NCBI RefSeq assembly: GCF_009914755.1
Contig: NC_060925.1
DNA from: the human T2T-CHM13v2.0 reference genome, Homo sapiens
Strand: one strand, 5' to 3'
Length of the DNA: 64,000 bases
Shown in pieces: positions 1,131-42,670 of this stretch. Both the position numbers and the translations under genes were made by a program. Position 1 is the stretch's first letter, and each line of letters opens with the position of its first letter. The notes below the pieces were generated by a model. The model did not search any database and was not told the origin of the DNA. It saw only the letters and a list, made by a program, of their open reading frames with translations.

Positions 1131-1325
1131 TAGTTCTTGGGATTTTTGTGCTGAAAGAGGTAAAACCGAAGATATTTACATGCCAATAAAATCTCTTTCA
1201 TAATGAGGAAAAACTTCATGTAAAAATATGTGCTGAAATCACTTCAGAATGATAAAATATTTTATAATGATAAATAAATAATAATGACATTTATTTTAGT
1301 TTCAAAATACTTAATTATTAGTTAT

Positions 1326-1777
1326 TGATGATGGTTAATTTTATACGTTAACTTGACTGGACTAAGGGATGCCCAGATAGCTGGTTAAACATTATTTCTG
1401 AGTGTATTATTGAAGATGCTCCCATAAGAGATTAGCATTTGAATCAGTTAAACAAGTGAAAAAAAAAGTCTATCTTCACCAGTGTGAGTAGGCATCATCT
1501 AATCTATTGAGGGCCCCAATAGAACAAAAAGTGGAGGGAAGAAGGGTGAATTTTCTCTCTTCTTGAGCTGGGACATCCATCTTCTCATGCCCTTAGTTTT
1601 GGATCTTCTAGTTCTCTGCCTTTAGACCCTGGGACTCACATTATTAGCCCCCTGGTTCTCATGTCTTCAGACTCAAACTAAATTATACCACTGGCTTTCT
1701 TAGTCCTCTAGCTTGTAGACCAGATTGTCAACTGCTCAGCTACCATAATCTTATGAGCCATTTCCCAAAAAGTAGGA

Positions 1778-5438: not shown

Positions 5439-8008
<2,570 letters not shown>

Positions 8009-8014
8009 GGCAGA

Positions 8015-8823
8015 CTGTGGCCAATACTGCAGATTAGCTTTTCAAGTCCCTTCCAATCCACTCTATTGGGGAAGCTGAAAAACTTAAAGCTTCTCACCGT
8101 GGGGTGGGGGGACTAGGATGAGACAAGTGAGGTGTCTAGGCCCCAAAATTTAAGGAGGCATTCAACTTCAAGCTTATGCAAGTACGGGACTGGCATGTGA
8201 GAATGAGTGCCTCCTTAAACTTTGTGCCCTGGATATCTTTCTTGCCTTGCACTAGTCCCAGTCTTGCTTCTCAGGTTCCCTGTAAGCTTATCTCCATATG
8301 TGACCCAGCTTCTGCTAAGACAGTGCACCTTTGGAGATTTAGAAGTAAGAAGTGATGCAGGATCCCTGCTCCTGGGAATTTTTTTGTTACTACTGGAAAG
8401 CAAGGATGAGAAATTTGGTGTTTGGGTTTTATTAGCATCATCAGAGGTTTCAGTAATTGGTCCCCACGTATGTAGGCATTGAAAGGAGAATTCAAGGAAG
8501 GACATTCATTTGCTGGCATGAAACAAAGATGTGCTGAGTAGTGGGGTCTTAGAGCTAAGAGTTTGATGGCAACATCTTGATCTTCAGACTTCAGCAGAGC
8601 TGGGATGATCCTGGAACCAGGAACTAAAGAAGCAGCTCCTGACTCCAGAAGCTTCCTGATCAGACAGGCAGCAACTCCCTTAGTGGCCTTTCTATGTTGG
8701 TGTTCAGGAATTAATCTTAGATGCTTAACCTCCAGCTGCCCTTTTGATGTGCCAACAGTTTTCTTAGCACATTATTTCCTTTTTGCCTTTCTGATACCTG
8801 TGACATGAGCCTTGACTGATACA
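8015..8823 (+). mobile_element. Ancient ERVL-type LTR (LTR33/LTR16-like), interrupted by a MITE
   Basis: Ends ...gagccttgactgataca, typical of old ERVL LTR 3' ends; family uncertain. Confidence 0.4.
8103..8266. mobile_element. Palindromic hAT-type MITE (MER96-like)
   Basis: Arms 8109-8163 (gggactagg...aaaatttaaggaggcattc) and 8205-8259 (gagtgcctccttaaactttg...ctagtccc) are imperfect inverted repeats. Confidence 0.7.
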
Positions 8824-9467: not shown

Positions 9468-11169
9468 AAAAACATGTAACTATAATCATTTATCATTTTA
9501 ATGAAAATAAAGAACTTGAAGTTATGAAAATAAGATTGCTCTCCAAGAAGGCAAGAAGTTTCTGTAACAGCCAATATATAATGATTCAGGGCATTCATAT
9601 TCAAAGTTATCTAACTGAATATATGAGTGATTACAAAGAAAGAGTCTATCAATGAAAGGGGTGAGGGACTGGTCTGCCACAGAATAATGATACAAGAAGA
9701 GTCACAAAGGCAAGACTGTTGTCTCCACTGAAGTACTGGCCAGAATAGAGGAGCCATAGTCACGGGTCTTGAGTAGCTCCAGTTTCTACTGCATTGGAAA
9801 GAGCATTCCCATTACACAAACGTGACAAATTATTATAGCTTTATACCACTACACTTCCGGTTTCTCCAATGCCCTTTATTCTATTTTTTTTGCCCCAAGT
9901 GATAGTTTAATTATGTTTTGGAGGAAGTATACTGATCATTTTCATCCACTTTCTGTTTTGTTGCAGTAGTTATACGTCTCATAAACTGTGATATTGCTAT
10001 TCTTTCTTCATTCATCACTCTTCGATTCACTTTATGGGTATCTGTGGCTACAAAATATATTCCTTCTTGATATCTTCATAAAATTAAGTTTGAAGACTAA
10101 AAACTGAAGGCCTGGACTCTGGAAAATTTACCAGTACTAACCCATGATGCCTCTTCTCAGAAAACGAATGCATCCTTCCACAGGAAACAGGCACAAACCA
10201 GACACTGAAAGACAGCAAGTACAATGTACTTTCCTAGAGCATAAGAGAATGACTCTTATAGGTCCTATGCTACTTACTGACCCATTTCATCTGAACTTCT
10301 AAAGTTTCTAAAGCTATGCCCAAATTTTCTTTTCCTGTACAGGTATATTGAAATCTAATCCAAATAATGCATATATACTAAAATAGAATATCCATGTCAT
10401 ATAATTTTAAATGGCAGCAAATGTTTTCTATATGATTTATTATTCTAGATGATCTCTAAAATAATTTTCAACTATACAAATCTAGAGTATCTAACATGTT
10501 CACCATCTCTTTAGGTTCCTGAGTGCTTCCAATATGGTGGCTTTAATGTTAAATTATGAATGCTTAAAAATCAAATTTAATCTAAACTCCAAAATGCTTA
10601 TACTTCTTTTTCGTCATGTAGGCTTCAGTGAATAGTAAATGATTTACAAATGTTTCTTGATAATGATGAAACAAGTTTATTTTAACTAGACTATGCTAAT
10701 AAATGAATTATACCTTTTATAATTTTTTTCTATAGCCAAATTTGAGAAAATGAGTAATATATTTGCCACTTAATCCCTTTATCTCTTTTATAAAAATAGT
10801 CAGGATAATTTAGATTCAATTTTGTACCAAGAGAAGGGGATTGTGACTTGGGATTTGTGGACCCTTTACCAGCCCTCCAAAGTATATCTAATCCCAGACT
10901 ATTTATAAGCCACAAAATATCATCCCCAAATTTTTGATACAATAATAATATCTCATAACTCATTTCTAGTGCTTTGCATTTTTAAAGGTGCTTTTGCAGC
11001 TATCATCTATTAACTTTAGCTTGTAAGCAAACTTGTTCTGTAGGCTGGACAAGTGTAATTTACTATTCCTATCATGTAGTTGTAGAAAATGGGACTTACA
11101 GGGTGTTGTACTGGGTTCCTACTCACCTGGTTACTTAGTAGTAGATCGAAGTCTGAATTGAAGTGTTTT

Positions 11170-11525
11170 TCTCCTTCCTTAAATCAACTGTATTAAGGTA
11201 TAATTTACAAACAATGCAATTCACTCATTTAAAATATAAATTTGGTGTTTGAAAATTTTATATATCCATGAAACCACTATCACAATAAGGATTTACAACA
11301 CCTACATCAACTAAACCAATTCTCTTGTGCCATTTTGCAACAAATCCCTCACCACCACCACACATGGCCCTAGGCAATCATTGACAGGTTTCTCTCCATA
11401 GAGATTGGTTTTACCTCTTCTAAAATGTCATATAAATGAAATAGTGCAGTGTGTGCATTTTTGTGTCTGGCTTATTTTGCTAAACATGTATTTGAGATTC
11501 ACTCAAGTTGCTGTGTGTGTCATTA
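11170..11525 (-). mobile_element. Old L1 (L1MB/L1ME-type) 3' end fragment
   Basis: tattaaggtataatttacaaacaatgcaattcactcattt... and tcatataaatgaaatagtgcagtgtgtgcatttttgtgtctggctt motifs. Confidence 0.7.
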
Positions 11526-12049
11526 TGGACTAAGCCCTTTGAATCCTGCAAATGGTTATTTCTAAGAGACAGTGTTCTAATGCTCCCTTCTTTCCATTCC
11601 AGCTTTAAATAGCCCTATATTTTCATTCCACTGGACTATTAAAAGTCTCTTAACTAATATGCTCATTTTGAGTCTCCATCCTATCTATCGTACTGTTAAA
11701 GAGTGCTGTTTCAAATATACAGCTTTGTCAACCCATTGCCTAACATCACTTCTCCTAAAGCAGTAGTTCTCCAAGTGCTCCACAGAATGTCATGGGGTGG
11801 CAAGAGCAAGATGGGTAAGCTCTGCTTCTGGATCCACCTTTGTGCCTTCAGTTGGAGCAAACCAATGTCTTATCCAGTTGTATATCAGACTTCCATGAAA
11901 ATTTTTAATTGTAGAAAAATTTATTTCCTTTAAACATTTGTAGCTAATCTATGGAACACATCTATTCTCTGGCGACTGGCTGCCCCTCCAATTTGTGTTT
12001 CATACAGAACCCCCTCTTCAGTCATTTTTCTACCATCACAGATATAAAT

Positions 12050-12330
12050 CCCACATAGCCATGCACCACACCCTTAAATCACCAGGCTCTTTCACTGGCA
12101 AGTCCTTTGCTCCAACTGCTCCATTTTCCTGGAGTAGTTTTCTACCCCCCACTTTTATTTATCTAGCAAGCACATACTCATGGCTTAAGACTTTAAGCTA
12201 TAGGTACAACTTATTTATGAAGTTTCCCATACTTCATCCCCTAATATGTAGTAATAACAGCTTCTTACTTATAACCACAGTTTCCTAAACATATTAACAC
12301 TGTACTGGGAAAATACTTTTTTATATCCAT
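12050..12330 (+). mobile_element. L2 relic
   Basis: cctttgctccaactgctccattttcctggagtagttttct...tactcatggcttaagact motif. Confidence 0.4.
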
Positions 12331-12879
12331 GCCCATTTTTTAGTAATTATATACATTTATATGATTATCTTGAAAGTAACCACTGTACATAACACTGACA
12401 CTAACCAATGGCCACAGCTAATTTATATGGAGTAATTCATGACTCAACTCAGGCCAGTGAGAGACTCTCCCCACTTGCTGCCATCTAGACACATCCATGG
12501 TTCAGGATGGGCATGTGATACAGAATAGGTCACTCAGAGGTCATAAGTTTTCATTTTTGCTTAGGCTAGTTCCAGTTAAACTTTTGTTACTTGTGACTGA
12601 AAACACTCCTAAAAGTTTTTAACACCGAAGTGCATTTATTTGTTTTTTCTAATTTGCATTTTATCTTTCTTTTTTTGTTATTATACTTTAAGTTCTAGGG
12701 TACATGTGCACAACGTGCAGGTTTGTTACATTGTATACATGTGTCATGTTGGTGTGCTGCACCCATTAACTCACCATTTACATTAGGTATTCCTCCTAAT
12801 GTTATCCCTCCCCACTCCCCCAACCCCACAACAGGCCCCAGTGTGTGATGTTCCCCACCTTGTGTCCAAGTGTTCTCAT

Positions 12880-16692
<3,813 letters not shown>

Positions 16693-16755
16693 TATGATGT
16701 TAGCTGGTTATTTTGCTTGGTAGTTGATGCAGTTTCTTCCTAGCATTGATGGTCT

Positions 16756-17776
16756 TTACAATTCGGCATGCTTTTGCAGTGGCTGGTACCGGTTTTTCCT
16801 TTCCGTGTTTAGTGCTTCCTTCAGTAGCTCTTGTAAGGCAGGCCTGATGATGATAAAATCTCTCAGCATTTGCTTGTCTATAAAGGATTTTATTTCTCCT
16901 TCACTTATGAAGCTTAGTTTGGCTGGATATGAAATTCTGGGTTGAAAATTCTTTTCTTTAAGAATGTTGAATATTGGCCCCCACTCTCTTCTGCCTTGTA
17001 GAGTTTCTGCTGAGAGATCTGCTGTCAGTCTGATGGGCTTCCCTTTGTGGGTAACCTGACCTTTCTCTCTGGCTGCCCTTAACATTTTTTCCTTCATTTC
17101 AACCTTGGTGAATCTGACAATTATGTGTCTTGGAGTTGTTCTTCTCGAGGAGTATCTTTGTGGTGTTCTCTGTATTTCCTGAATTTGAATGTTGGCCTGC
17201 CTTGCTAGGTTGGGGAAGTTCTCCTGGCTAATATCCTGCAGAGTGTTTTCCAACTTGGTTCCATTCTCCCCGTCACTTTCAGGTACACCAATCAAACATA
17301 GATTTTGTCTTTTCACATAGTCCCACATTTCTTGAAGGCTTTGTTCGTTTCTTTTTTCTCTTTTTCCTCTGAACTTCTCTTCTCACTTTAATTCATTTGA
17401 TCGTCAATCATGATACCCTTTCTTCCACTTGATCTAATCATCTACTGAAGCTTGTGCATTGATCACATAGTTCTTGTGCCATGATTTTCAGCTCCATCAG
17501 GTCATTTAAGGTCTTCTCTACTCTGTTTATTCTAGTAAGCCATTCATCTAATCTTTTTTCAAGGTGTTTAGCTTCTTTGTGATGGGTTTGAGCATCCCCC
17601 TTTAGCTCAGAGAAGTTTGTTATTACCGATCTTCTGAAGCCTACTTCTGTCAACTCATCAAAGTCATTCTCCATCCAGCTTTGTTCCATTATGGGTGAGG
17701 AGCTACGATCCTTTGGAGGAGAAGAGGCACTCTGATTTTTAGAATTTTCAGCTTTTCTGCTCTGGTTTCGCCCCAT
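16756..17776 (-). pseudogene. L1 ORF1p (RNA-binding chaperone), disrupted
   Basis: ORF pieces 17438-17776 (MGRNQSRKAENSKNQSASSPPK...) and 16756-17328 (...WDYVKRQNLCLIGVPE...PRISYPAKLSF...). Confidence 0.93.
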
Positions 17777-17779
17777 CTT

Positions 17780-18814
17780 TGTGGTTTTATCTACCTTCGG
17801 TCTTTGATGATGGTGACCTACAGATGGGGTTTTGGTGTGGATGTCCTTTTTGTTGCTGTTGATGCTATTCCTTTCTGTTTGTTAGTTTTCTTTCTAATAG
17901 TCAGGACCCTCAGCTGCAGGTCTGTTGGAGTATGCTGGAGGTCCACTCCAGACCCTGTTTGCCTAGGTATCACCAGCAGAGGCTGCAGAACAGAAATATT
18001 GCAGAACAGCAAATGTTGCTCCCTGATCCTTCCTCTGGAAGCTTCGTCTCAAAGGGGCACCTGAATGTATGAGGTGTCAGTCGGCCCCTACTGGGAGGTG
18101 TCTCCTGGTTAGGCTACTCGGGGGTCAGGGACCCACTTGAGGAGGCAGTCTGTCCATTCTCAGATCTCAAACTCCATGCTGGGAGAACAACTGCTCTCTT
18201 CAAAGCTGTCAGACAGGGCGGTTTAAGTCTGCAGAAGTTTCTGGTGCCTTTTGTTCAGCTATGCCCTGCCCCCAAAGGTGGAGTCTACAGAGGCAGGCAG
18301 GCCTCGTTGAGCTGCAGTGGGCTCCACCCAGTTTGAGCTTCCTGGCCGCTTTGTTTATTTAGTCAAGCCTCAGCAATAGCAGACGCCCCTCCCCCAGCCT
18401 CGCTGCCACCTCACAGTTCCATCTCGGACTGCTGTGCTAGCAGTGAGCAAGGCTCCATGGGTGTGAGACCCCCTGAGCCATGCACGGGATATAATCTCCT
18501 GGTGTGTCGCTTGCTAAGACCATTGGAAAAGCACCGTATTAGGGTGGGAGTGTCCCCATTTTCCAGGTACCGTCTGTCATGGCTTCCCTTGGCTAGGAAA
18601 GGGAATCCCCTGACCCCTTGCACTTCCCGGGTGAGGCAATACCCTGCCCTGCTTCGGCTCACACTCCGTGGGCTGCACCCACTGTCCAACAAGTCCCAGT
18701 GAGATGAACCCGGTACCTCAGTTGGAAATGCAGAAATCACCTGTCTTCTGCATTGCTCACACTGGGAGCTGTAGACTGGAGCTGTTCCTATTCGGCCATC
18801 TTGGAACAATCTCC
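17780..18814. promoter_or_regulatory. L1 5'UTR with internal sense promoter (minus) and antisense promoter region (plus)
   Basis: Complete 5'UTR upstream of the ORF1 ATG; intact YY1 core; activity not demonstrable from sequence, many CpGs decayed. Confidence 0.6.
18376..18702 (+). pseudogene. L1 ORF0-homologous antisense frame (canonical ATG changed to ATA; in-frame ATG at 18457)
   Basis: Frame reads IADAPPPASLPPHSSISDCCASSEQGS-MGVRPPEPCTGYNLLVCRLLRPLEKHRIRVGVSPFSR, collinear with ORF0p MAGAPPPASLPPCSLISDCCAS...VGVGPSEPGVGYSLVVRRFLSRSEKRNIRVGVTRFSR as recalled. Confidence 0.75.
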
Positions 18815-18824
18815 TATCTTTCTC

Positions 18825-18839
18825 TTTTTAATTATAATT

Positions 18840-18889
<50 letters not shown>

Positions 18890-19167
18890 AGACAGGGCCT
18901 TCCTCTGTCACCCAGGCTACAATGCAATGGTGTGATCATATGCAGTCTCAAATGTCTAGGCTCAAGTGATCTTCTTACCTCAGTCTCCAAAGTGGATGGG
19001 ACTACAGGCATATTCCACCATGCATGGCTTATTTTTAAACAATTTTTGTAGAGATGGGGTTGCACTACATTGCCCAGGCTGGTCTTGAAACTCCTGGCCT
19101 CAAACAATCCTCTCACCTCAACCTCTTAAAATGTTGAGATTACAGGCATGAGACAGCACACCTGGCC
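18825..19167 (-). mobile_element. AluJ SINE; its left TSD lies on the far side of the L1
   Basis: Diverged dimer with J features (ggctcaagtgatcttc, ctcaaacaatcctc); TSD atttgcattttatctt at 19172 and 12652. Confidence 0.88.
18842..18884. repeat. Pure poly(T) run, 43 nt
   Basis: Direct count. Confidence 0.95.
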
Positions 19168-19563
19168 CTAGATTTGCATTTTATCTTGACTGCCTTCTTG
19201 GTCTTTATATATCTAACACCTAGCCCAATGCCTTCTACAAAATGGATATTTAATACATACTCAAGGAGTGAATGTACAAATGGGTGAGTGAAAAAAATAT
19301 GCCTGTAGAACATAATCATTGAGAACTTATAGCAGTGAATTTATTTAGTAATTAAAATTAAAGGCAACTATACATAAAATATGCAGAAAAACTGATGGAA
19401 TTTAACATAATGAATATGATAGAATAAAGGCATAAACCCAAGTGGATAGAGAAGGATTAAATCAGAGAACAAGGTTAAGTAACTTGAAATTTCAGACTGC
19501 CATAAGGATCTGATAATTTTGAGTCTTGTAGGGTACCTTCTTTAATAAACTTTTTTTTATACA

Positions 19564-19905
19564 CAGTCTTCCCTTGGTATCCATGGAGAATTGGTTCTAG
19601 GACTCGTCTATGGATACCAACATTTGATTGATATTCAAGTCCCTCATATATTAATAAAATGATGCAGTATTTGCACATAACCTAAACACATCTTTCCTAT
19701 TACCTAAATTATCTCTAGATTGTGTGTAATACCTAACACAATGCCTACACATCACTTCATTCACGTGGGATTAATGTAGCACTCAGGGCACAGCAAATTC
19801 ATATTTTGCTTTTTGAAACTTTGTAGAAATTTTTTCCCTGAATATGTTCTATCAGAGTTGGCTGAATCCACATATGTGTAACTCACAGATACAGAGGGCC
19901 AATAG
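19564..19905. mobile_element. MER2-like Tc1/mariner-Tigger non-autonomous DNA transposon
   Basis: Ends cagtcttcccttggtatcc... / ...gatacagagggccaa; internal aaaatgatgcagtatttgcacataaccta. Confidence 0.8.
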
Positions 19906-20916
19906 AGACCAACAATATATACAATTGCTAATAGTGATCTCCAGGAGCCCCAAAAAGCATGAACCAAAATTGCAGAAGTAAGCATTTTCACAGATGAGCA
20001 GATAAGAGTGAAAGTCACAGTATTGGCCTTTGCTTTTTAACATAAATAAATGAGGTTTGTGTATTCATTCTTCCATGGATAATATATAATAGAACCTGAT
20101 TAATATCTCATGTCATCTTCAATTTAAGGTGAAATAATAAAGATCATTTGACCTCTAGACTTTCTTTAAATGTCATTAAAGCATTCATATAAATAATGAT
20201 ATGGAGAATGCATTTTCTTTATTTTACCACAGAATTTGATTTAGTGCGTAAGGAGTACCAGGCATTTGTTATACAAAATCAGTACAACAAAGACCATATC
20301 CTAGAATGCATTACAATACTATAGGGGAAATCAACAGAAAATGAAATTATAAGACAAAATGATAAAGTGCTGTAAAAGGGTATGAATAAAGCACAGCAGA
20401 GGTAACCTTAAAATTCACCAAACAAAATTCTCAAAGATCTTAGTAAAGAGATTGAAGGATATGATCTATTCTGAAAGTGGGTGTTTTAACAACTATTTGC
20501 ATCTCTTTAGCTGAGTGTAGCAAATTTGATTGGTTGTATCTTCCCTGCTTCCTCATATTTCATTGAGTGTCATATTTACTAAAGTGTTCTGGGGAGAAAG
20601 GGCAATTCACTAAATAGAATAGAATGAGAATGGGAGAATGATTTGGGCCCTATTATTTGTTACCATCATAAATATTTATTGCATATTCTTGTGCTTGATC
20701 ATCTACAAGGTGCTAATTCTTATGAGCTTAAAAACCAAGGATAATTAATGAATTACCTCCATACATATATGAGATACATTTAATAATTATGCACAGGTAG
20801 GAGTGACCTTATGAAAGATGGGGATGGGCAGCTCTTTATTTGATTTGAGAAATACAGGGTCTTACCTGCAAAAGGGGTTAAACATATTAAAGTTTGATTT
20901 GGCAGTGAATTCGTTT

Positions 20917-21070
20917 CTTGTGACTGAAAACACTCCTAAAAGTTTTTAACACCAAAGTGCACTTATTTTTTTTTCAAATTTGCATTTTATTTTTTTCCTT
21001 TTAATTAAAAAAAAATTTTTTTTTTTAAAAAAGGACAAGGTCTTCCTCTGTCACCCAGGCTATACTGCAG
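20917..21070 (+). repeat. Dispersed local duplication of the L1 pre-insertion site (12590-12670 joined to 18815-18927)
   Basis: cttgtgactgaaaacactcctaaaagtttttaacacc identical to 12590-12626; continues into tail and cttcctctgtcacccaggcta matching 18899-18919. Confidence 0.92.
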
Positions 21071-21341
21071 TATATTTAACCCATAAATGGGTTAAGAATA
21101 TTACCTTCCCACAGGGCTGCATTTGAATACATTTCTTTTGATGCAACCCGTATTTTTTGTTTAAGCTATTTCCTTTAGAAAGTCACTTATATTCTGCATA
21201 TGAATTTACTGGAAAAAGAAGGCTCATTGGAATGCTGGCAATGGCTAATGTGCTCATGTGTCAATTAGTGCCCTGTCCTAAGAACAATATGAGGAGATAG
21301 GATACAAAATTGTTAAGTCTTTCAGGAACAGAGGGAAACTA

Positions 21342-21670
<329 letters not shown>

Positions 21671-21789
21671 AAAACACGCTGCTTCACACTTTATATTGTA
21701 TGTTATCCTTGTAACCAATGTGATTTATATATCTTTAGTACAGTGTGTGTACATGCGTGTGCGTGTGTGTCCTATTTTAAGTAACCTAC

Positions 21790-22230
21790 ACGTTTATACA
21801 AGGGATTGCTATTGAACACCTACATGTGCCAGAATATTGTGGGAATTGGAGATGTAATAGTAAGTAAGAACCCAGATTTCTACATCTTAAAGAGCTTACA
21901 GTATAGTGGAAGACACGGGCACATTTAGTGAAATACGCTGTATGATAGGAGATATACTGGAAATATGGGAGCATTGAGAGGAAGTTATGTCTGATGTGAA
22001 AGGTTAAGGATGGCTTCCAAAACCAGGGATTTCTGAGATGAGATATGCAGTATGGGCACAAACGTGCCAGGTGAGCCAGGAGAGGTAAGAGGTGAGAAGG
22101 CAGAGAGGGCAGCATGTGCAAATATCTAGCAAGAGGAAAGATAATACCCAATTCAGGGATCTAGGAAACATTTGCTCTTCTAAAGTTTAGAGGATGAAGG
22201 GGGAATGTTGAAAGATAACAGCAGGAAAGT
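21790..22230 (-). mobile_element. L2 relic
   Basis: tattgaacacctacatgtgccag..., ggcagagagggcagcatgtgcaaa motifs. Confidence 0.65.
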
Positions 22231-22848
22231 GTATTAGAATTCTTTTGGAGCAAGACACAAAAACAGATAGCTCCCAGCTTAAGTAAAGTAAGAATATACT
22301 ACAAACCTAATACGATACATATCTCATAAATCCAACTCTCAGGAATCTCTTTGGCTTCAATAAAGAAAGGAATTGAGAACTTAAATGGTATCAAGATTGC
22401 CTCTGCATCATTCCTCTCTGCTCCACTGCCTGGGTTGGCTCCATTCTCCATGCTCACTGCTGACAGGCTGTCTCTACTCAGTAGATAGATAATTTCATCC
22501 TCCTTACTTCTTATAGTGGATACCCAGGAAATTATTTGTTTAGTGCCTTGTCTTATACTGAAAGACCTCCTTATACACCCATCCTTGTGGATTCCAGTAG
22601 CAATTTTGTACCTAATTGATTGATACAAAAATGGGCATTAGGCCCAAGATGATACAATAAGAATATTTCCCCTGGCTAGCCTCTTTAATGGAGACATTTT
22701 AGGTTTGGTTTATATAGGACCAACATATCACCATAAGGCTCATATGAGGAATTATTTAGAATTAGGTAAGGGGCTAAGCAAATGCCTCTGCAGGTATTCA
22801 CAACAATATAATAAATGGGATTGAGAAATTTGGACTAGAATATATTAA

Positions 22849-23183
<335 letters not shown>

Positions 23184-23959
23184 TTTTTTGCTTTATTAAA
23201 ATAAAAATTGTTTGAACTAGTGTGCTTTTCTTGTATATTTAACATTTGCTAAATTTTCATTTGCTTGCAACTTATTAGGAGCAAATTCACTGCAAAAACA
23301 AAGTGAATTTCTTGTGTGGTTGAGTCCCTTGGTGCATGTGAATTTCTGACATCAGGTCTGAAGATGTGAGCCATTCTCATCAAATACCACACTGGCCTCC
23401 ACAGAGCTCTCCATGATTATTTGATCCTTCAGACTCCATGCGAGCTAGAAGTGGTGGGTGGGAGCAGATGCTATCCAAGCATTTCCATCACTTTTGGCAT
23501 TTTGGTTGCTGATCTGATAACATTTTCCTATATTTATTTTGGATGTAGTCCTGCAATTTTCTCCCAGGCACTATTATCTGCACTTGACAGACTGTGTACA
23601 GCAGAAGTGCTGATCCTTGATCATGGGGCAGATTATATGACATATGAATGGTGCAGTATGCTACACACCAATAAGCAAATCCCTTGGAAAAGCATGGAAT
23701 AGTACAAACAGGCTGAGTGGCCATTTCTTATTCCTACTGACACTGTTTTGAAAAACAGTTTTAAAAAGCCCTGGATCCTGTCATATTGAGAAGAAAAGGA
23801 CATTTTTGTTTCTTGTGCGGTCACAAGTAACAAGAATAACAACTATCTTTTATTAGGTACATGTCATGTTCCAGGTACTTTGAGTAATAGTAGTCATTCA
23901 TATGGGAATCTTTCTTACTTGGCTTTGGTTGAGATTTAAAGTTGGGATGGCAGGGAGCA

Positions 23960-24480
23960 CAACAGGTACCTCTTCTGGTTATTACCAGGTGACAAATGAA
24001 ACCAACATTTAGCAGCTGAAGACAGCCCTTTGATTGTGCTGACAAATTCTGTGGGTTGGGAATTTGAATGCAGTATCCAAGGCCTCAGCCGATTCCAAGG
24101 CAGGGGGTAATTCGAAACCCAGAGACCAAAATCACCTGAAGGCTCATTCATGCACACTCCTGGCACTTGGGCTGGAGGATTCAAGGACTAGAATTGACAG
24201 CTGGAGTTCCTCCCTGTGTCTTCTCCAGGTATCTTGGCTTCCTCATAGTATGGCCACGTCAGGGTACTTGGCCACTTACATGAAGCTCAGGGAATCCAGT
24301 GCAAGTGTTTCAGCAAACAAGGCAGAAGCCTCATCTCTTTTCATGACCCAGCATCAAAAGTCACGCAGTGTTACTTTTAATATATTGTATTGATCAAACC
24401 CCACCCATATTCAAAATAACATAGATCTTCCTATTAATGGACACCAAAATTTTGGTGCCATGTTTTCAAAAAGCCAAAGT
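23960..24480 (-). mobile_element. MLT1 (F/G/H-like) MaLR solo LTR
   Basis: aattctgtgggttgggaatttg, gaaggctcattcatgcacactcctggc, cagcaaacaaggcagaagc, aagtcacgcagtgttactt motifs. Confidence 0.65.
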
Positions 24481-24506
24481 ATCAGACCACAAAGGCAAAG
24501 TGGCAT

Positions 24507-24885
24507 TGTCAGTTTAGGCTGCTATAAGAGAATACCATAGACTGAGTAACTTAAACAACCAATATTTATTTCTCACAGTTTGAGAGCCTGAGAAGTTCAA
24601 GATCAAGATGCCCATAGATTCAGTGTCTAGTGAGGACACTTCCAAGTTATAGAATGCCAAGTTCTTTTTGTATCTTTACATGGTAGAAAGCAGAAAGAGC
24701 TCTATGGGGTCTCTTTTATGTGAACACTAATCCCACATATGAGATTGGTATTACCTCCCAATTGAAGTACCTCCCAATCTAATTATTTCCCAAAGGCCCT
24801 GTCTCCTAATACCATCACATTGGAGGTAAGGATTTCACCATATCACTTTGGTGGGGAAAGGGTACAAAAATGTAGATCATAACAC
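24507..24885 (-). mobile_element. MLT1A-like MaLR solo LTR
   Basis: ggctgctataagagaataccatagactgagtaacttaaacaac...atttatttctcacagt...aagatcaagatgcc...ctcctaataccatcacattgg. Confidence 0.8.
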
Positions 24886-24920
24886 TTATCATGGTTTAAA
24901 AATTATAAAAGTGGTATTGC

Positions 24921-25054
24921 AGCCAGTAACAGTGGCTCACACCTATAATCCCAACTTCTTGGGAGTCTGAGGTGGAAGGATCACTGTAGTGAACTATGAC
25001 TATGCCACTCTACTCCAGCCCAGGCAACAAAGAGAGAACCTGTCTAGAAAAAAT
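24921..25054 (+). mobile_element. Alu monomer relic (FAM/FRAM-like) with internal deletion
   Basis: gtggctcacacctataatccca...gaggtggaaggatcact joined to gtagtgaactatgactatgccactctactccagcc. Confidence 0.65.
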
Positions 25055-37479: not shown

Positions 37480-38580
37480 CAATGGCTTCATTTTTACTTT
37501 GTACTGTACACAGAAAATTCCAGTTATTTAATAAAACTAAAAGTGAAAGGCAAAACAGTAAAGCTTATAGACCATTACAAGAGGTAATAACTATCTAGAA
37601 GAACATTTTTAACTACATTAAAATTAAAGCCTCTCTTAAACAAAAGAAATCTTTAAACGTGAGCAAAACAAAACGTGAGCAAAACAACCTATAGACTAAC
37701 ACATGACGTTTGCAAAATATGTTGTATCCAGTAGGATGTGAGGCCAGATTATACAAAGAATTTCTGTAAATCAATAGGAAATTGTCAGACCCCAGTGGAA
37801 AAATGAGCAAAAGGCTTGAACAGGCACTTCAGCTGAGAGGACACCCAAATTGTCATCATTAGGGAAATTGAATGAAATGAAAAATAAAACTGCAGTGAGC
37901 CATCATCACATAGCCACCATAATAGCTAAAAAATTGTAGAAGATTGACCATAGTGTTGATAAACACATAGAGCAATAAGAGCTATCACATACTGCTTGCA
38001 GAAGTAAAACTTAGTATAATCACCCTCGGAAAGCTACATGAAAGTAAGTATAAATGAACATATACATGCTTTATGACTCAGCAATCACCATTCTAGAAAT
38101 GTGTACACATGTGCACCAAAAGACAGTTATAATTTGGAAACATTTACAGAAGCATCATTTACAATTGCTCCAAACTGGGAAATAACCCAAATGTGCATCA
38201 ACAGATAAATAATTGTAATGTATTTAAACAGTTGAGAAAATATAGAGAATAACAAGAAACAAACCTTTGCTACATACAATGGCATGAATTAATCTGGCAA
38301 ATACAATATTGAGTGAAACAATTTAGATTTTTAAAACTCTATTACTTCATCAGTATGAAATTCAAAATAGGTAAAACTATTTTTGGTGTTAAAATTCAAG
38401 GAAATGGTTGCCCTTGAAAAGGCAGTGTTTAATGCTTTGAAAGGGGTATGGTTGGGGGAGGGGGGCTCTGATTTTTTTTATTATTCTATTTTGTGACATA
38501 AGTGTGTATTACATGGGTATGCTCCTTTCTGATTATTCATCACTTGTGACATTGTACTTTACCTATATTAAACCTTAATT
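37480..38580 (+). mobile_element. Old L1 (L1ME-type) 3' region
   Basis: aaaatgagcaaaaggcttgaacaggcacttc, tatgactcagcaatcacc, ccaaactgggaaataacccaaatgtgcatcaacag motifs. Confidence 0.75.

Positions 38581-42670
<4,090 letters not shown>

What the first reader, a model, noticed from the sequence alone, without database searches (positions are those of the whole stretch)
20917..21070. A 150-bp snapshot of the empty L1 target site, preserved 2 kb downstream
Seen: 20917-~20990 copies the unique left flank of the full-length L1 (12590-12665; first 37 nt identical). It then runs, with no L1 sequence, into the right flank: the AluJ tail and acaaggtcttcctctgtcacccaggcta, matching 18892-18919. The two source pieces are now 6.1 kb apart. 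Inference: the segment was copied after the AluJ landed but before the L1PA5-like element inserted, so the locus carries its own pre-insertion allele. This fixes the order AluJ, duplication, L1 without needing an outgroup. The copy starts in unique DNA, ends inside the Alu and has no poly(A) of its own, so it is not a retrotransposition product.
Basis: partly seen in the sequence, partly recalled or inferred. Interest (0 to 1): 0.8.

Follow-up and report, generated by a model that had tools for sequence, protein, structure and literature searches.

The report
Small local copy preserving L1-free site
A 165-base stretch of human chromosome 1 is an old copy of DNA that lay 2 kb upstream, made before an L1 element landed in the original, so it still shows the unbroken target site; this is a tidy example of a common, already described kind of small repair-made duplication.

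Summary
Window 20907/20910-21071 is colinear with 12577/12583-12670 joined directly to 18824-18928. It skips the whole 6.1-kb minus-strand L1 and keeps one copy of the L1 target-site duplication. The left flank occurs at only these two places in the 3.1-Gb assembly. A 21-mer shared by the two Alu-tail parts occurs 56 times genome-wide, and two of those are here. No wider homology surrounds the copy. It has no poly(A/T) and no abutting target-site duplication typical of retrotransposition.

The order Alu, duplication, L1 is the most economical reading. It rests on structure, because the divergence clock is too coarse to order the last two events: 11 of 119 sites differ, 9.2%.

The copy fits the repair-mediated proximal duplications of Pace et al. 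2009 (PMC2671141). Those number 824 in human, have donors under 5 kb away, average 162 bp and carry no poly(A). Before the L1 landed the donor lay about 2 kb upstream. A paralogous empty site is also a known idea (RESites).

So this is a new instance of a known kind, of low interest. Primate orthologues could not be examined.

The parts
20907..21071 (+). The copy (acceptor), about 165 bp. It holds the unique flank, the Alu left target-site duplication, a single L1 target site, a tail remnant with A9 and T12, and the last ~43 nt of the Alu.
12577..12670 (+). Donor part 1: unique DNA left of the L1. It includes the Alu's left target-site duplication (12649-12667) and the start of the L1's left target-site duplication (12662-12676).
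   Evidence: (only two genomic places)
12671..18814 (-). Full-length L1, dead, with a short A tail at 12671-12676. Homology to other L1s runs from 12675 to about 18807. The longest ATG-started frame is 237 aa.
18815..18829 (+). Right copy of the L1 target-site duplication, TATCTTTCTCTTTTT. The left copy is TATCTTTC..TTTTT at 12662-12676. On the L1 sense strand the site reads TT|AAAAA.
   Evidence: direct reading
18824..18928 (+). Donor part 2: Alu tail remnant, a 44-nt T run (18841-18884) and the 3' end of the Alu.
18885..19167 (-). Old dimeric Alu, 283 bp. It is the source of the Alu end found in the copy.
19168..19187 (+). Right copy of the Alu target-site duplication, CTAGATTTGCATTTTATCTT. 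The left copy is at 12649-12667 and differs by a 1-nt indel.
   Evidence: 16-nt core hit
20902..20906 (+). GCAGT just left of the copy. It recurs as the last 5 nt of the copy (21067-21071), and CAGT also precedes the donor (12573-12576). This is possible junction microhomology.
   Evidence: direct reading; significance weak
21061..21074 (.). Perfect 14-nt palindrome TATACTGCAGTATA straddling the right junction of the copy.

Best explanation
The segment is a short, DNA-templated proximal duplication of the class called repair-mediated duplication.

History of the locus:
- An old Alu inserted on the minus strand with a 19-20-nt target-site duplication.
- Later, a broken or stalled 3' end about 2 kb downstream paired with the nearby sequence through a few bases of microhomology, possibly CAGT.
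- That end copied about 165-200 nt: unique flank, Alu tail and the last ~43 nt of the Alu. It was then released and joined back, leaving a same-strand insert with no poly(A).
- Still later, a full-length L1 inserted by ordinary target-primed reverse transcription at a TT|AAAAA site. That site lay where the Alu tail met the Alu's target-site duplication, inside the donor. The L1 split the donor into two pieces 6.1 kb apart.
- The copy was never hit, so it keeps the undivided target.

Shown: colinearity, uniqueness, direction, the absence of retrotransposition marks, and the anatomy of the L1 and Alu insertions.

Inferred: the repair pathway (strand-annealing repair or replicative template switching, which the sequence cannot tell apart), the microhomology, and the order of duplication relative to L1.
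For: - Colinear match across the L1 site with one target-site-duplication copy.
- The left flank is found at 2 places only in 3.1 Gb, with 2 candidates, both scored.
- The shared Alu-tail 21-mer is found 56 times in the genome (32 forward, 24 reverse; 0 for the reversed control), and two of these lie 2.1 kb apart here. By my arithmetic the expected number of such close pairs among 56 random sites is about 0.002.
- No other homology appears in the 2 kb on either side of donor or copy. There were only 7 Alu-to-Alu hits and 5 short hits at E 0.18 or worse.
- No A or T tract abuts either end, and no direct repeat longer than 5 nt flanks the copy.
- The properties match the proximal RDs of Pace et al.: donor under 5 kb away (66% under 3 kb), mean length 162 bp, median 147, and none of 39 inspected with poly(A/T) (PMC2671141 sections 6 and 7).
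- Here the length is about 165 bp, and the pre-L1 gap from donor end to copy start is about 1,980 bp.
- Divergence is 11 of 119 sites, 9.2% (95% CI 4.7-15.9%). This lies within the spread of 'All primates' and 'HCOR' rows of their Table S1.
Against: - No outgroup genome could be read, so the empty acceptor site is unseen. The insertion, any filler or deletion, and the microhomology are therefore inferred.
- The CAGT/GCAGT repeats are only 4-5 nt after tens of millions of years of decay and could be chance.
- The Alu part alone is not diagnostic. Another Alu elsewhere on the chromosome matches 21034-21071 at 95% over 38 nt, better than the donor's 87.5% over 40.
- The preference for a single target-site-duplication copy in the alignment is small (196 vs 190 vs 186).
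- The clock does not order duplication and L1. The copy and donor differ by about 9%. The L1's ends differ by 7-8% from the best of only 40 scored out of 10,050 and 5,373 candidates.
- The locus was not found in Pace Table S1. I could not convert coordinates to hg18 exactly, so I searched only numbers beginning 694-699.
Confidence: 0.8

Rival explanations
1. A 2.2-kb tandem duplication of the unit starting at about 12573 (without the L1), followed by deletion of the last 2 kb of the second unit. This would leave only the second unit's first ~165 bp.
For: The copy begins exactly one pre-L1 unit length (about 2.18 kb) downstream of the donor's start and on the same strand, so the final structure is formally the same.
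Against: It needs two events where one suffices. The deletion would have to end exactly at the end of the second unit. No trace of the rest of a second unit is found in 21071-25000.
Confidence: 0.07
2. An RNA-mediated copy. A minus-strand read-through transcript running from the Alu end through its tail into the downstream flank was reverse-transcribed and inserted. This could be a severely 5'-truncated transduction-type retrocopy or an RNA-templated break repair.
For: On the minus strand the copied stretch reads Alu 3' end, A tail, then downstream flank, which is what a read-through transcript would contain. An AATAAA lies in the flank (complement of 12636-12641).
Against: - No T tract lies left of 20907 and no A tract lies right of 21071, and there is no abutting target-site duplication of the retrotransposition type.
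- The copy runs about 55 nt past the AATAAA and past two TTTT runs that would stop RNA polymerase III (the rule on TTTT stops is recalled).
- In Pace et al., 0 of 39 proximal cases had poly(A/T), while 17 of 29 distant ones did.
- The donor is only 2 kb away and on the same strand.
Confidence: 0.05
3. The copy was made after the L1 had landed. Repair synthesis copied one flank, fell off in the L1's 9-15-nt target-site duplication and re-annealed at the other copy 6.1 kb away, skipping the L1 and recreating an empty-site look-alike.
For: The L1 is bracketed by direct repeats of TATCTTTCT plus T's, which could guide such a jump. Chimeric acceptors with two donors exist: 20 of 1,136 cases, 5 of them with the second donor within 3.5 kb. 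Divergence dating cannot exclude this order.
Against: Two-donor events are rare, and the jump would have to fall exactly on the L1 boundaries. A later hit of a ~200-bp donor by one of the many primate retroelement insertions is far more likely a priori (inference).
Confidence: 0.04
4. Chance resemblance, or two members of an unrecognised interspersed repeat family.
For: The region is AT-rich and part of the match is Alu-derived.
Against: E-values are 7e-28 in the window and 8.5e-25 genome-wide. Only two genomic places match the left flank, whereas true repeats from this window return thousands of candidates with the same tool.
Confidence: 0.01

Closest known systems
[quoted passage not shown] I read the abstract, sections 6, 7, 8 and 14, passages, part 1 of 15 of Table S1, and ran one term search in that table.
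   Same: - Single-copy donor on the same chromosome, about 2 kb away before the L1 arrived.
- Length about 165 bp, against their mean of 162.
- No poly(A/T).
- Possible 4-5-nt microhomology.
- Divergence in the range of their primate-wide and catarrhine cases.
   Different: - The acceptor is not inside a recognisable transposable element, so their pipeline would not have found it.
- The donor has since been split by an L1, so donor and acceptor now lie more than 8 kb apart for the left half.
- Breakpoint hallmarks cannot be confirmed without an outgroup.
'Doublets', short paired duplications in mammalian genomes (Thomas et al. 2004). Known to me only through Pace et al. section 14 and recall; the paper itself was not read.
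   Same: A short local duplicate at about kilobase spacing. The same-strand and spacing properties of doublets are recalled, not read.
   Different: Doublets were defined as exact matches of 25-100 bp (recalled). This pair is longer and about 9% diverged.
[quoted passage not shown] The concept comes from Le et al. as described in PMC2213677 (passages only).
   Same: The copy spans both flanks of the L1 without the element and with a single target site. This is the definition used there.
   Different: RESites were used in plant genomes to prove past mobility of DNA transposons. Here the element is a human L1, and the paralogue is only 2 kb away.
L1 target-primed reverse transcription insertion (the event that split the donor).
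   Same: Full-length element, short A tail, 9-15-nt target-site duplication, and a TT|AAAAA nick site on the sense strand (the nick-site consensus is recalled).
   Different: Nothing unusual. It is context for the finding, not the finding itself.

Membership tests
Repair-mediated proximal duplication (Pace et al. 2009) | The inserted sequence is at least 50 bp and found at only one other place in the genome. | tested here: met
   About 165 bp. The left-flank query gave 2 places, from 2 candidates both scored. The Alu-derived part is repeated genome-wide, as expected.
Repair-mediated proximal duplication (Pace et al. 2009) | The donor is on the same chromosome within 5 kb of the acceptor, and not in tandem (more than 50 bp apart). 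| tested here: met
   Donor end 18928 to copy start 20907 is about 1,980 bp. The left half is now 8.2 kb away only because of the 6.1-kb L1.
Repair-mediated proximal duplication (Pace et al. 2009) | No poly(A/T) tract of 5 nt or more at an end of the insert. | tested here: met
   The flanks read ...GGCAGTGAA on the left and ATATTTAACCC... on the right.
Repair-mediated proximal duplication (Pace et al. 2009) | Breakpoints show microhomology, filler or a deletion. | tested here: inconclusive
   CAGT precedes both donor and copy, and GCAGT brackets the copy. A 14-nt palindrome spans the right junction. These motifs are short, the event is old and no empty site is available.
Repair-mediated proximal duplication (Pace et al. 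2009) | The acceptor interrupts an annotated transposable element, or an orthologous empty site exists in an outgroup. | not testable with these tools
   The flanks 20500-20906 and 21072-21460 gave no other genomic match. No primate genomes or repeat library are on hand.
RESite (paralogous empty site) | One hit spans both flanks of the element, lacks the element and has a single target site. | tested here: met
Retrocopy or L1-mediated transduction | A 3' poly(A) tract and flanking target-site duplications. | tested here: not met
   No tail. The longest flanking direct repeats are two 5-mers (ATATT and GCAGT), of which only GCAGT lies at the junctions, ending the insert on the right and sitting just outside it on the left.
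Segmental duplication | At least 1 kb at 90% identity or more (definition as quoted in PMC2671141 section 14). | tested here: not met
   Only about 165 bp is duplicated, with no wider homology.
   No repeat library is available. L1 ends are 92-93% identical to the best other copies. The Alu is 75-81% identical. Both fit a middle-aged L1PA and a very old Alu.

The most novel reading that the evidence does not exclude
The copy was made after the L1 had inserted. A repair polymerase copying the donor jumped between the two target-site-duplication copies that bracket the L1, so break repair regenerated an 'empty site' from a filled one. If true, paralogous empty sites would not always prove that a duplication predates an insertion.
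Probability: 0.03. Interest if true: 0.45.

Novelty: new member of a known kind. Interest (0 to 1): 0.15.

Why it matters
It matters little beyond the locus. The pair orders three events (Alu, small duplication, L1) from one genome. It also shows the exact pre-integration target of a full-length L1, and how later insertions can push a proximal duplication outside the 5-kb rule used to catalogue this class. Cases like this are probably under-counted in such catalogues. No gene, annotated regulatory element or unusual mechanism is involved.

Tried and rejected
- **Wider duplication.** I compared 18927-20909 with 21071-25000, and 10500-12582 with both 18927-20909 and 21071-25000. Only Alu-to-Alu matches and short chance hits appeared.
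- **Common repeat.** Rejected by the genome search, with positive controls.
- **Other low-copy local duplicates in the window.** A self-BLAST gave 89 non-self hits. After filtering for low depth, 12 pairs remained. They comprised the focal pair, L1-to-L1 matches, four self-palindromic stretches and two direct pairs that proved to be high-copy repeats. The focal pair is the only truly low-copy one.
- **Retrotransposition marks.** None found.
- **Using the Alu end alone to prove descent.** Rejected, because another Alu matches it better. I replaced it with the 21-mer count.
- **Using the three target-site-duplication versions to order the L1 and the duplication.** Uninformative without an outgroup.
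- **Clock ordering.** The confidence intervals are too wide.
- **Looking the locus up in Pace Table S1.** The only chr1 row with a coordinate beginning 694-699 is an AluSg acceptor (134 bp, gap 1,784). It matches no pair in this window. I could not convert coordinates exactly, so absence from the table is not proven.

Full report
**What is there**

Window 20910-21002 matches 12583-12676 at 89.4% over 94 columns. Window 21016-21069 matches 18873-18926 at 87.0% over 54 columns.

A global alignment extends the left end to CAGT at 12573-12576 / 20903-20906. The right end is the T of TGCA(A/G)T at 18928 / 21071. The copy is therefore about 165 bp (20907-21071), a little wider than reported. Between its two halves there is no L1 sequence.

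**Chance and repeats**

The left-hand match has E 7e-28 within the window and E 8.5e-25 against the whole 3.1-Gb assembly. In that genome search the query 12575-12665 found just two places, itself and the copy, from 2 candidates, both scored. The tool warns that it skips very common words, so I ran controls. Two other direct repeat pairs from this window returned 9,583 and 1,545 candidates. Real repeats are therefore seen by the same tool.

The Alu-derived right half is not diagnostic on its own. An unrelated Alu elsewhere on the chromosome matches 21034-21071 at 95% over 38 nt, better than the donor's 87.5% over 40. However, the 21-mer shared exactly by donor and copy occurs only 56 times in the genome: 32 forward, 24 reverse, and 0 for the reversed control. 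Two of those 56 are the pair here, 2.1 kb apart on the same strand. By my arithmetic the expected number of such close pairs among 56 random sites is about 0.002.

**Anatomy of the donor locus**

- **The L1.** It lies on the minus strand. Homology to other L1s begins at 12675 and ends near 18807 (most of the 40 scored hits stop at query position 266-268). With its diverged first bases it reaches 18814, so it is full length at 6.1 kb. It is dead: the longest ATG-started frame is 237 aa.
- **The L1 target site.** The element is bracketed by TATCTTTC..TTTTT (12662-12676, merging with a very short A tail) and TATCTTTCTCTTTTT (18815-18829). On the L1 sense strand the target reads TT|AAAAA, the usual L1 endonuclease site (site consensus recalled).
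- **The Alu.** It spans 18885-19167 on the minus strand, 283 bp, with a 44-nt T run at 18841-18884. It has its own target-site duplication, CTAATTTGCATTTTATCTT (12649-12667) and CTAGATTTGCATTTTATCTT (19168-19187).
- **Where the L1 landed.** It hit the point where the Alu's A-rich tail meets the Alu's target-site duplication.
- **What the copy holds.** It has the unique flank, the Alu's left target-site duplication, one 15-nt version of the L1 target, a tail remnant, and the last ~43 nt of the Alu. An L1-free join with one target copy aligns best (196, against 190 and 186). The margin is small in this T-rich stretch.

**Direction and order**

The upstream locus has the whole Alu with both of its target-site duplications. 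The downstream piece has only the Alu's end. So the upstream locus is the donor, and the copy was made after the Alu landed.

The copy lacks the L1 and has one target site, so the simplest reading is that it was made before the L1 landed.

Divergence does not add to this. Over the non-homopolymer columns, 11 of 119 sites differ (9.2%, 95% CI 4.7-15.9%; Jukes-Cantor 9.9%), plus two gap events. On the scale Pace et al. use (2.2e-9 per year applied to donor-acceptor divergence) that is about 45 million years, with a range of roughly 22-81.

The L1's two ends are 92-93% identical to the best of the 40 copies scored, out of 10,050 and 5,373 candidates. That 7-8% is not separable from 9%. The Alu is 75-81% identical to the best 40 of 8,420 candidates, as expected of a very old Alu. 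The names L1PA5 and AluJ could not be tested. The ages I associate with them are recalled, not read.

**How the copy arose**

- **No wider duplication.** The 2 kb around donor and copy share only Alu-to-Alu matches (7 hits, all within 18956-19182) and five short hits at E 0.18 or worse.
- **No retrotransposition marks.** There is no T tract left of the copy and no A tract right of it. The longest direct repeats flanking it are two 5-mers.
- **A matching known class.** These features match the repair-mediated duplications of Pace et al. 2009 (PMC2671141). Of 1,136 single-donor insertions in human, 824 had the donor within 5 kb (753 within 3 kb). Their mean length was 162 bp, median 147, maximum 619. 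None of 39 inspected proximal cases had poly(A/T), and most showed microhomology, filler or deletions, which the authors take as marks of synthesis-dependent strand annealing.
- **Fit of this case.** Here the length is about 165 bp, and the pre-L1 gap from donor end to copy start is about 1,980 bp. The 'All primates' rows visible in part 1 of their Table S1 run from 0 to 16.5% divergence, mostly 6-13%. Two 'HCOR' rows seen are 6.8% and 8.7%. Our 9.2% sits among them.
- **Possible junction marks.** CAGT precedes both donor and copy, and GCAGT both precedes the copy (20902-20906) and ends it (21067-21071). A 3' end ...GGCAGT could have primed on the donor's CAGT, and the new end ...TGCAGT could have re-annealed at the break. 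This would fit strand-annealing repair and replicative template switching equally well.
- **Right-junction palindrome.** A perfect 14-nt palindrome spans the right junction at 21061-21074. The window holds 31 overlapping calls of such palindromes, about a dozen distinct loci, against a mean of 6 in shuffles. It could be snap-back filler.
- **Weight of these marks.** Both the microhomology and the palindrome are post hoc and unproven without an empty site.

**Rivals**

- **Tandem duplication plus deletion.** A 2.2-kb tandem duplication followed by a precise 2-kb deletion gives the same end state. It needs two events and leaves no trace.
- **RNA intermediate.** This fits the strand logic: Alu end, tail, then flank on the minus strand, with an AATAAA in the flank. 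But it lacks a tail and a target-site duplication. It would also have to run about 55 nt past the AATAAA and past two TTTT runs.
- **Post-L1 jump.** A jump between the L1's flanking repeats is the one reading that would overturn the order. Two-donor chimeras exist but are rare (20 of 1,136; 5 with a near second donor). The jump would have to fall exactly on the L1's ends.

**What is known**

- **Same class.** The event is a member of a described and numerous class (RDs). Pace et al. relate these to the earlier 'doublets' of Thomas et al. (section 14; that paper was not read).
- **Same idea.** Using a paralogue as an element-free image of an insertion site is also established, under the name RESites (passages of PMC2213677, citing Le et al.).
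- **Catalogue.** I did not find this locus in Pace Table S1. A search for coordinates beginning 694-699 returned one chr1 row, an AluSg acceptor of 134 bp with a 1,784-bp gap, which matches no pair in this window. I could not lift coordinates to hg18, so this is not proof of absence.
- **Why their method would miss it.** Their pipeline needs the acceptor to interrupt an annotated transposable element. The flanks here gave no other genomic match, so it would probably not have been detected.

**Verdict**

The mechanism is most likely an ordinary repair-made proximal duplication that predates the L1. This is a new instance of a known kind and of low interest. The decisive test, primate orthologues, could not be run with the tools on hand.

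Noticed in passing
window 18841-18884: The tail of this very old Alu is an uninterrupted run of 44 T. The copy made from it has only 12 T preceded by 9 A (21007-21027). The homopolymer probably expanded at the donor after the duplication, since a pure run this long is unusual for so old an element.
   Followed up: no
window 5439-5794 and 7650-8008: Two direct 356-359-bp repeats, 86% identical and 1,856 bp apart on the same strand. They belong to a high-copy family (9,583 genomic candidates). The layout looks like the two LTRs of one old LTR element (family name not tested).
   Followed up: partly
window 38579-40802 and 40800-42670: A second L1 whose 3' part (38579-40802) has the same orientation as the focal L1 (88% identical to 12675-14891). 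The adjoining part (40800-42670) is inverted (87% to 14896-16764). This layout is typical of an inversion made during L1 insertion.
   Followed up: no
window 1323-1396 and 1976-2048; 1760-2227: A 74-nt direct repeat, 95% identical and 580 bp apart, from a family with 1,545 genomic candidates. It lies beside (TA)n runs and long imperfect palindromes (1760-1855, 1857-2227).
   Followed up: partly
window 8109-8259: A 151-bp stretch that matches its own reverse complement at 69% identity. It was not examined further.
   Followed up: no
window 21061-21074: A perfect 14-nt palindrome, TATACTGCAGTATA, straddles the right junction of the copy. Its core, ACTGCAGT, is the end of the copied Alu piece. 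It may be snap-back filler or chance.
   Followed up: partly
Pace et al. Table S1, hg18 chr1:69431289-69431423: A catalogued repair-mediated duplication (134 bp inside an AluSg, donor 1,784 bp upstream, 6.8% diverged, catarrhine-wide) lies in the same part of chromosome 1. It corresponds to no pair in this window.
   Followed up: partly
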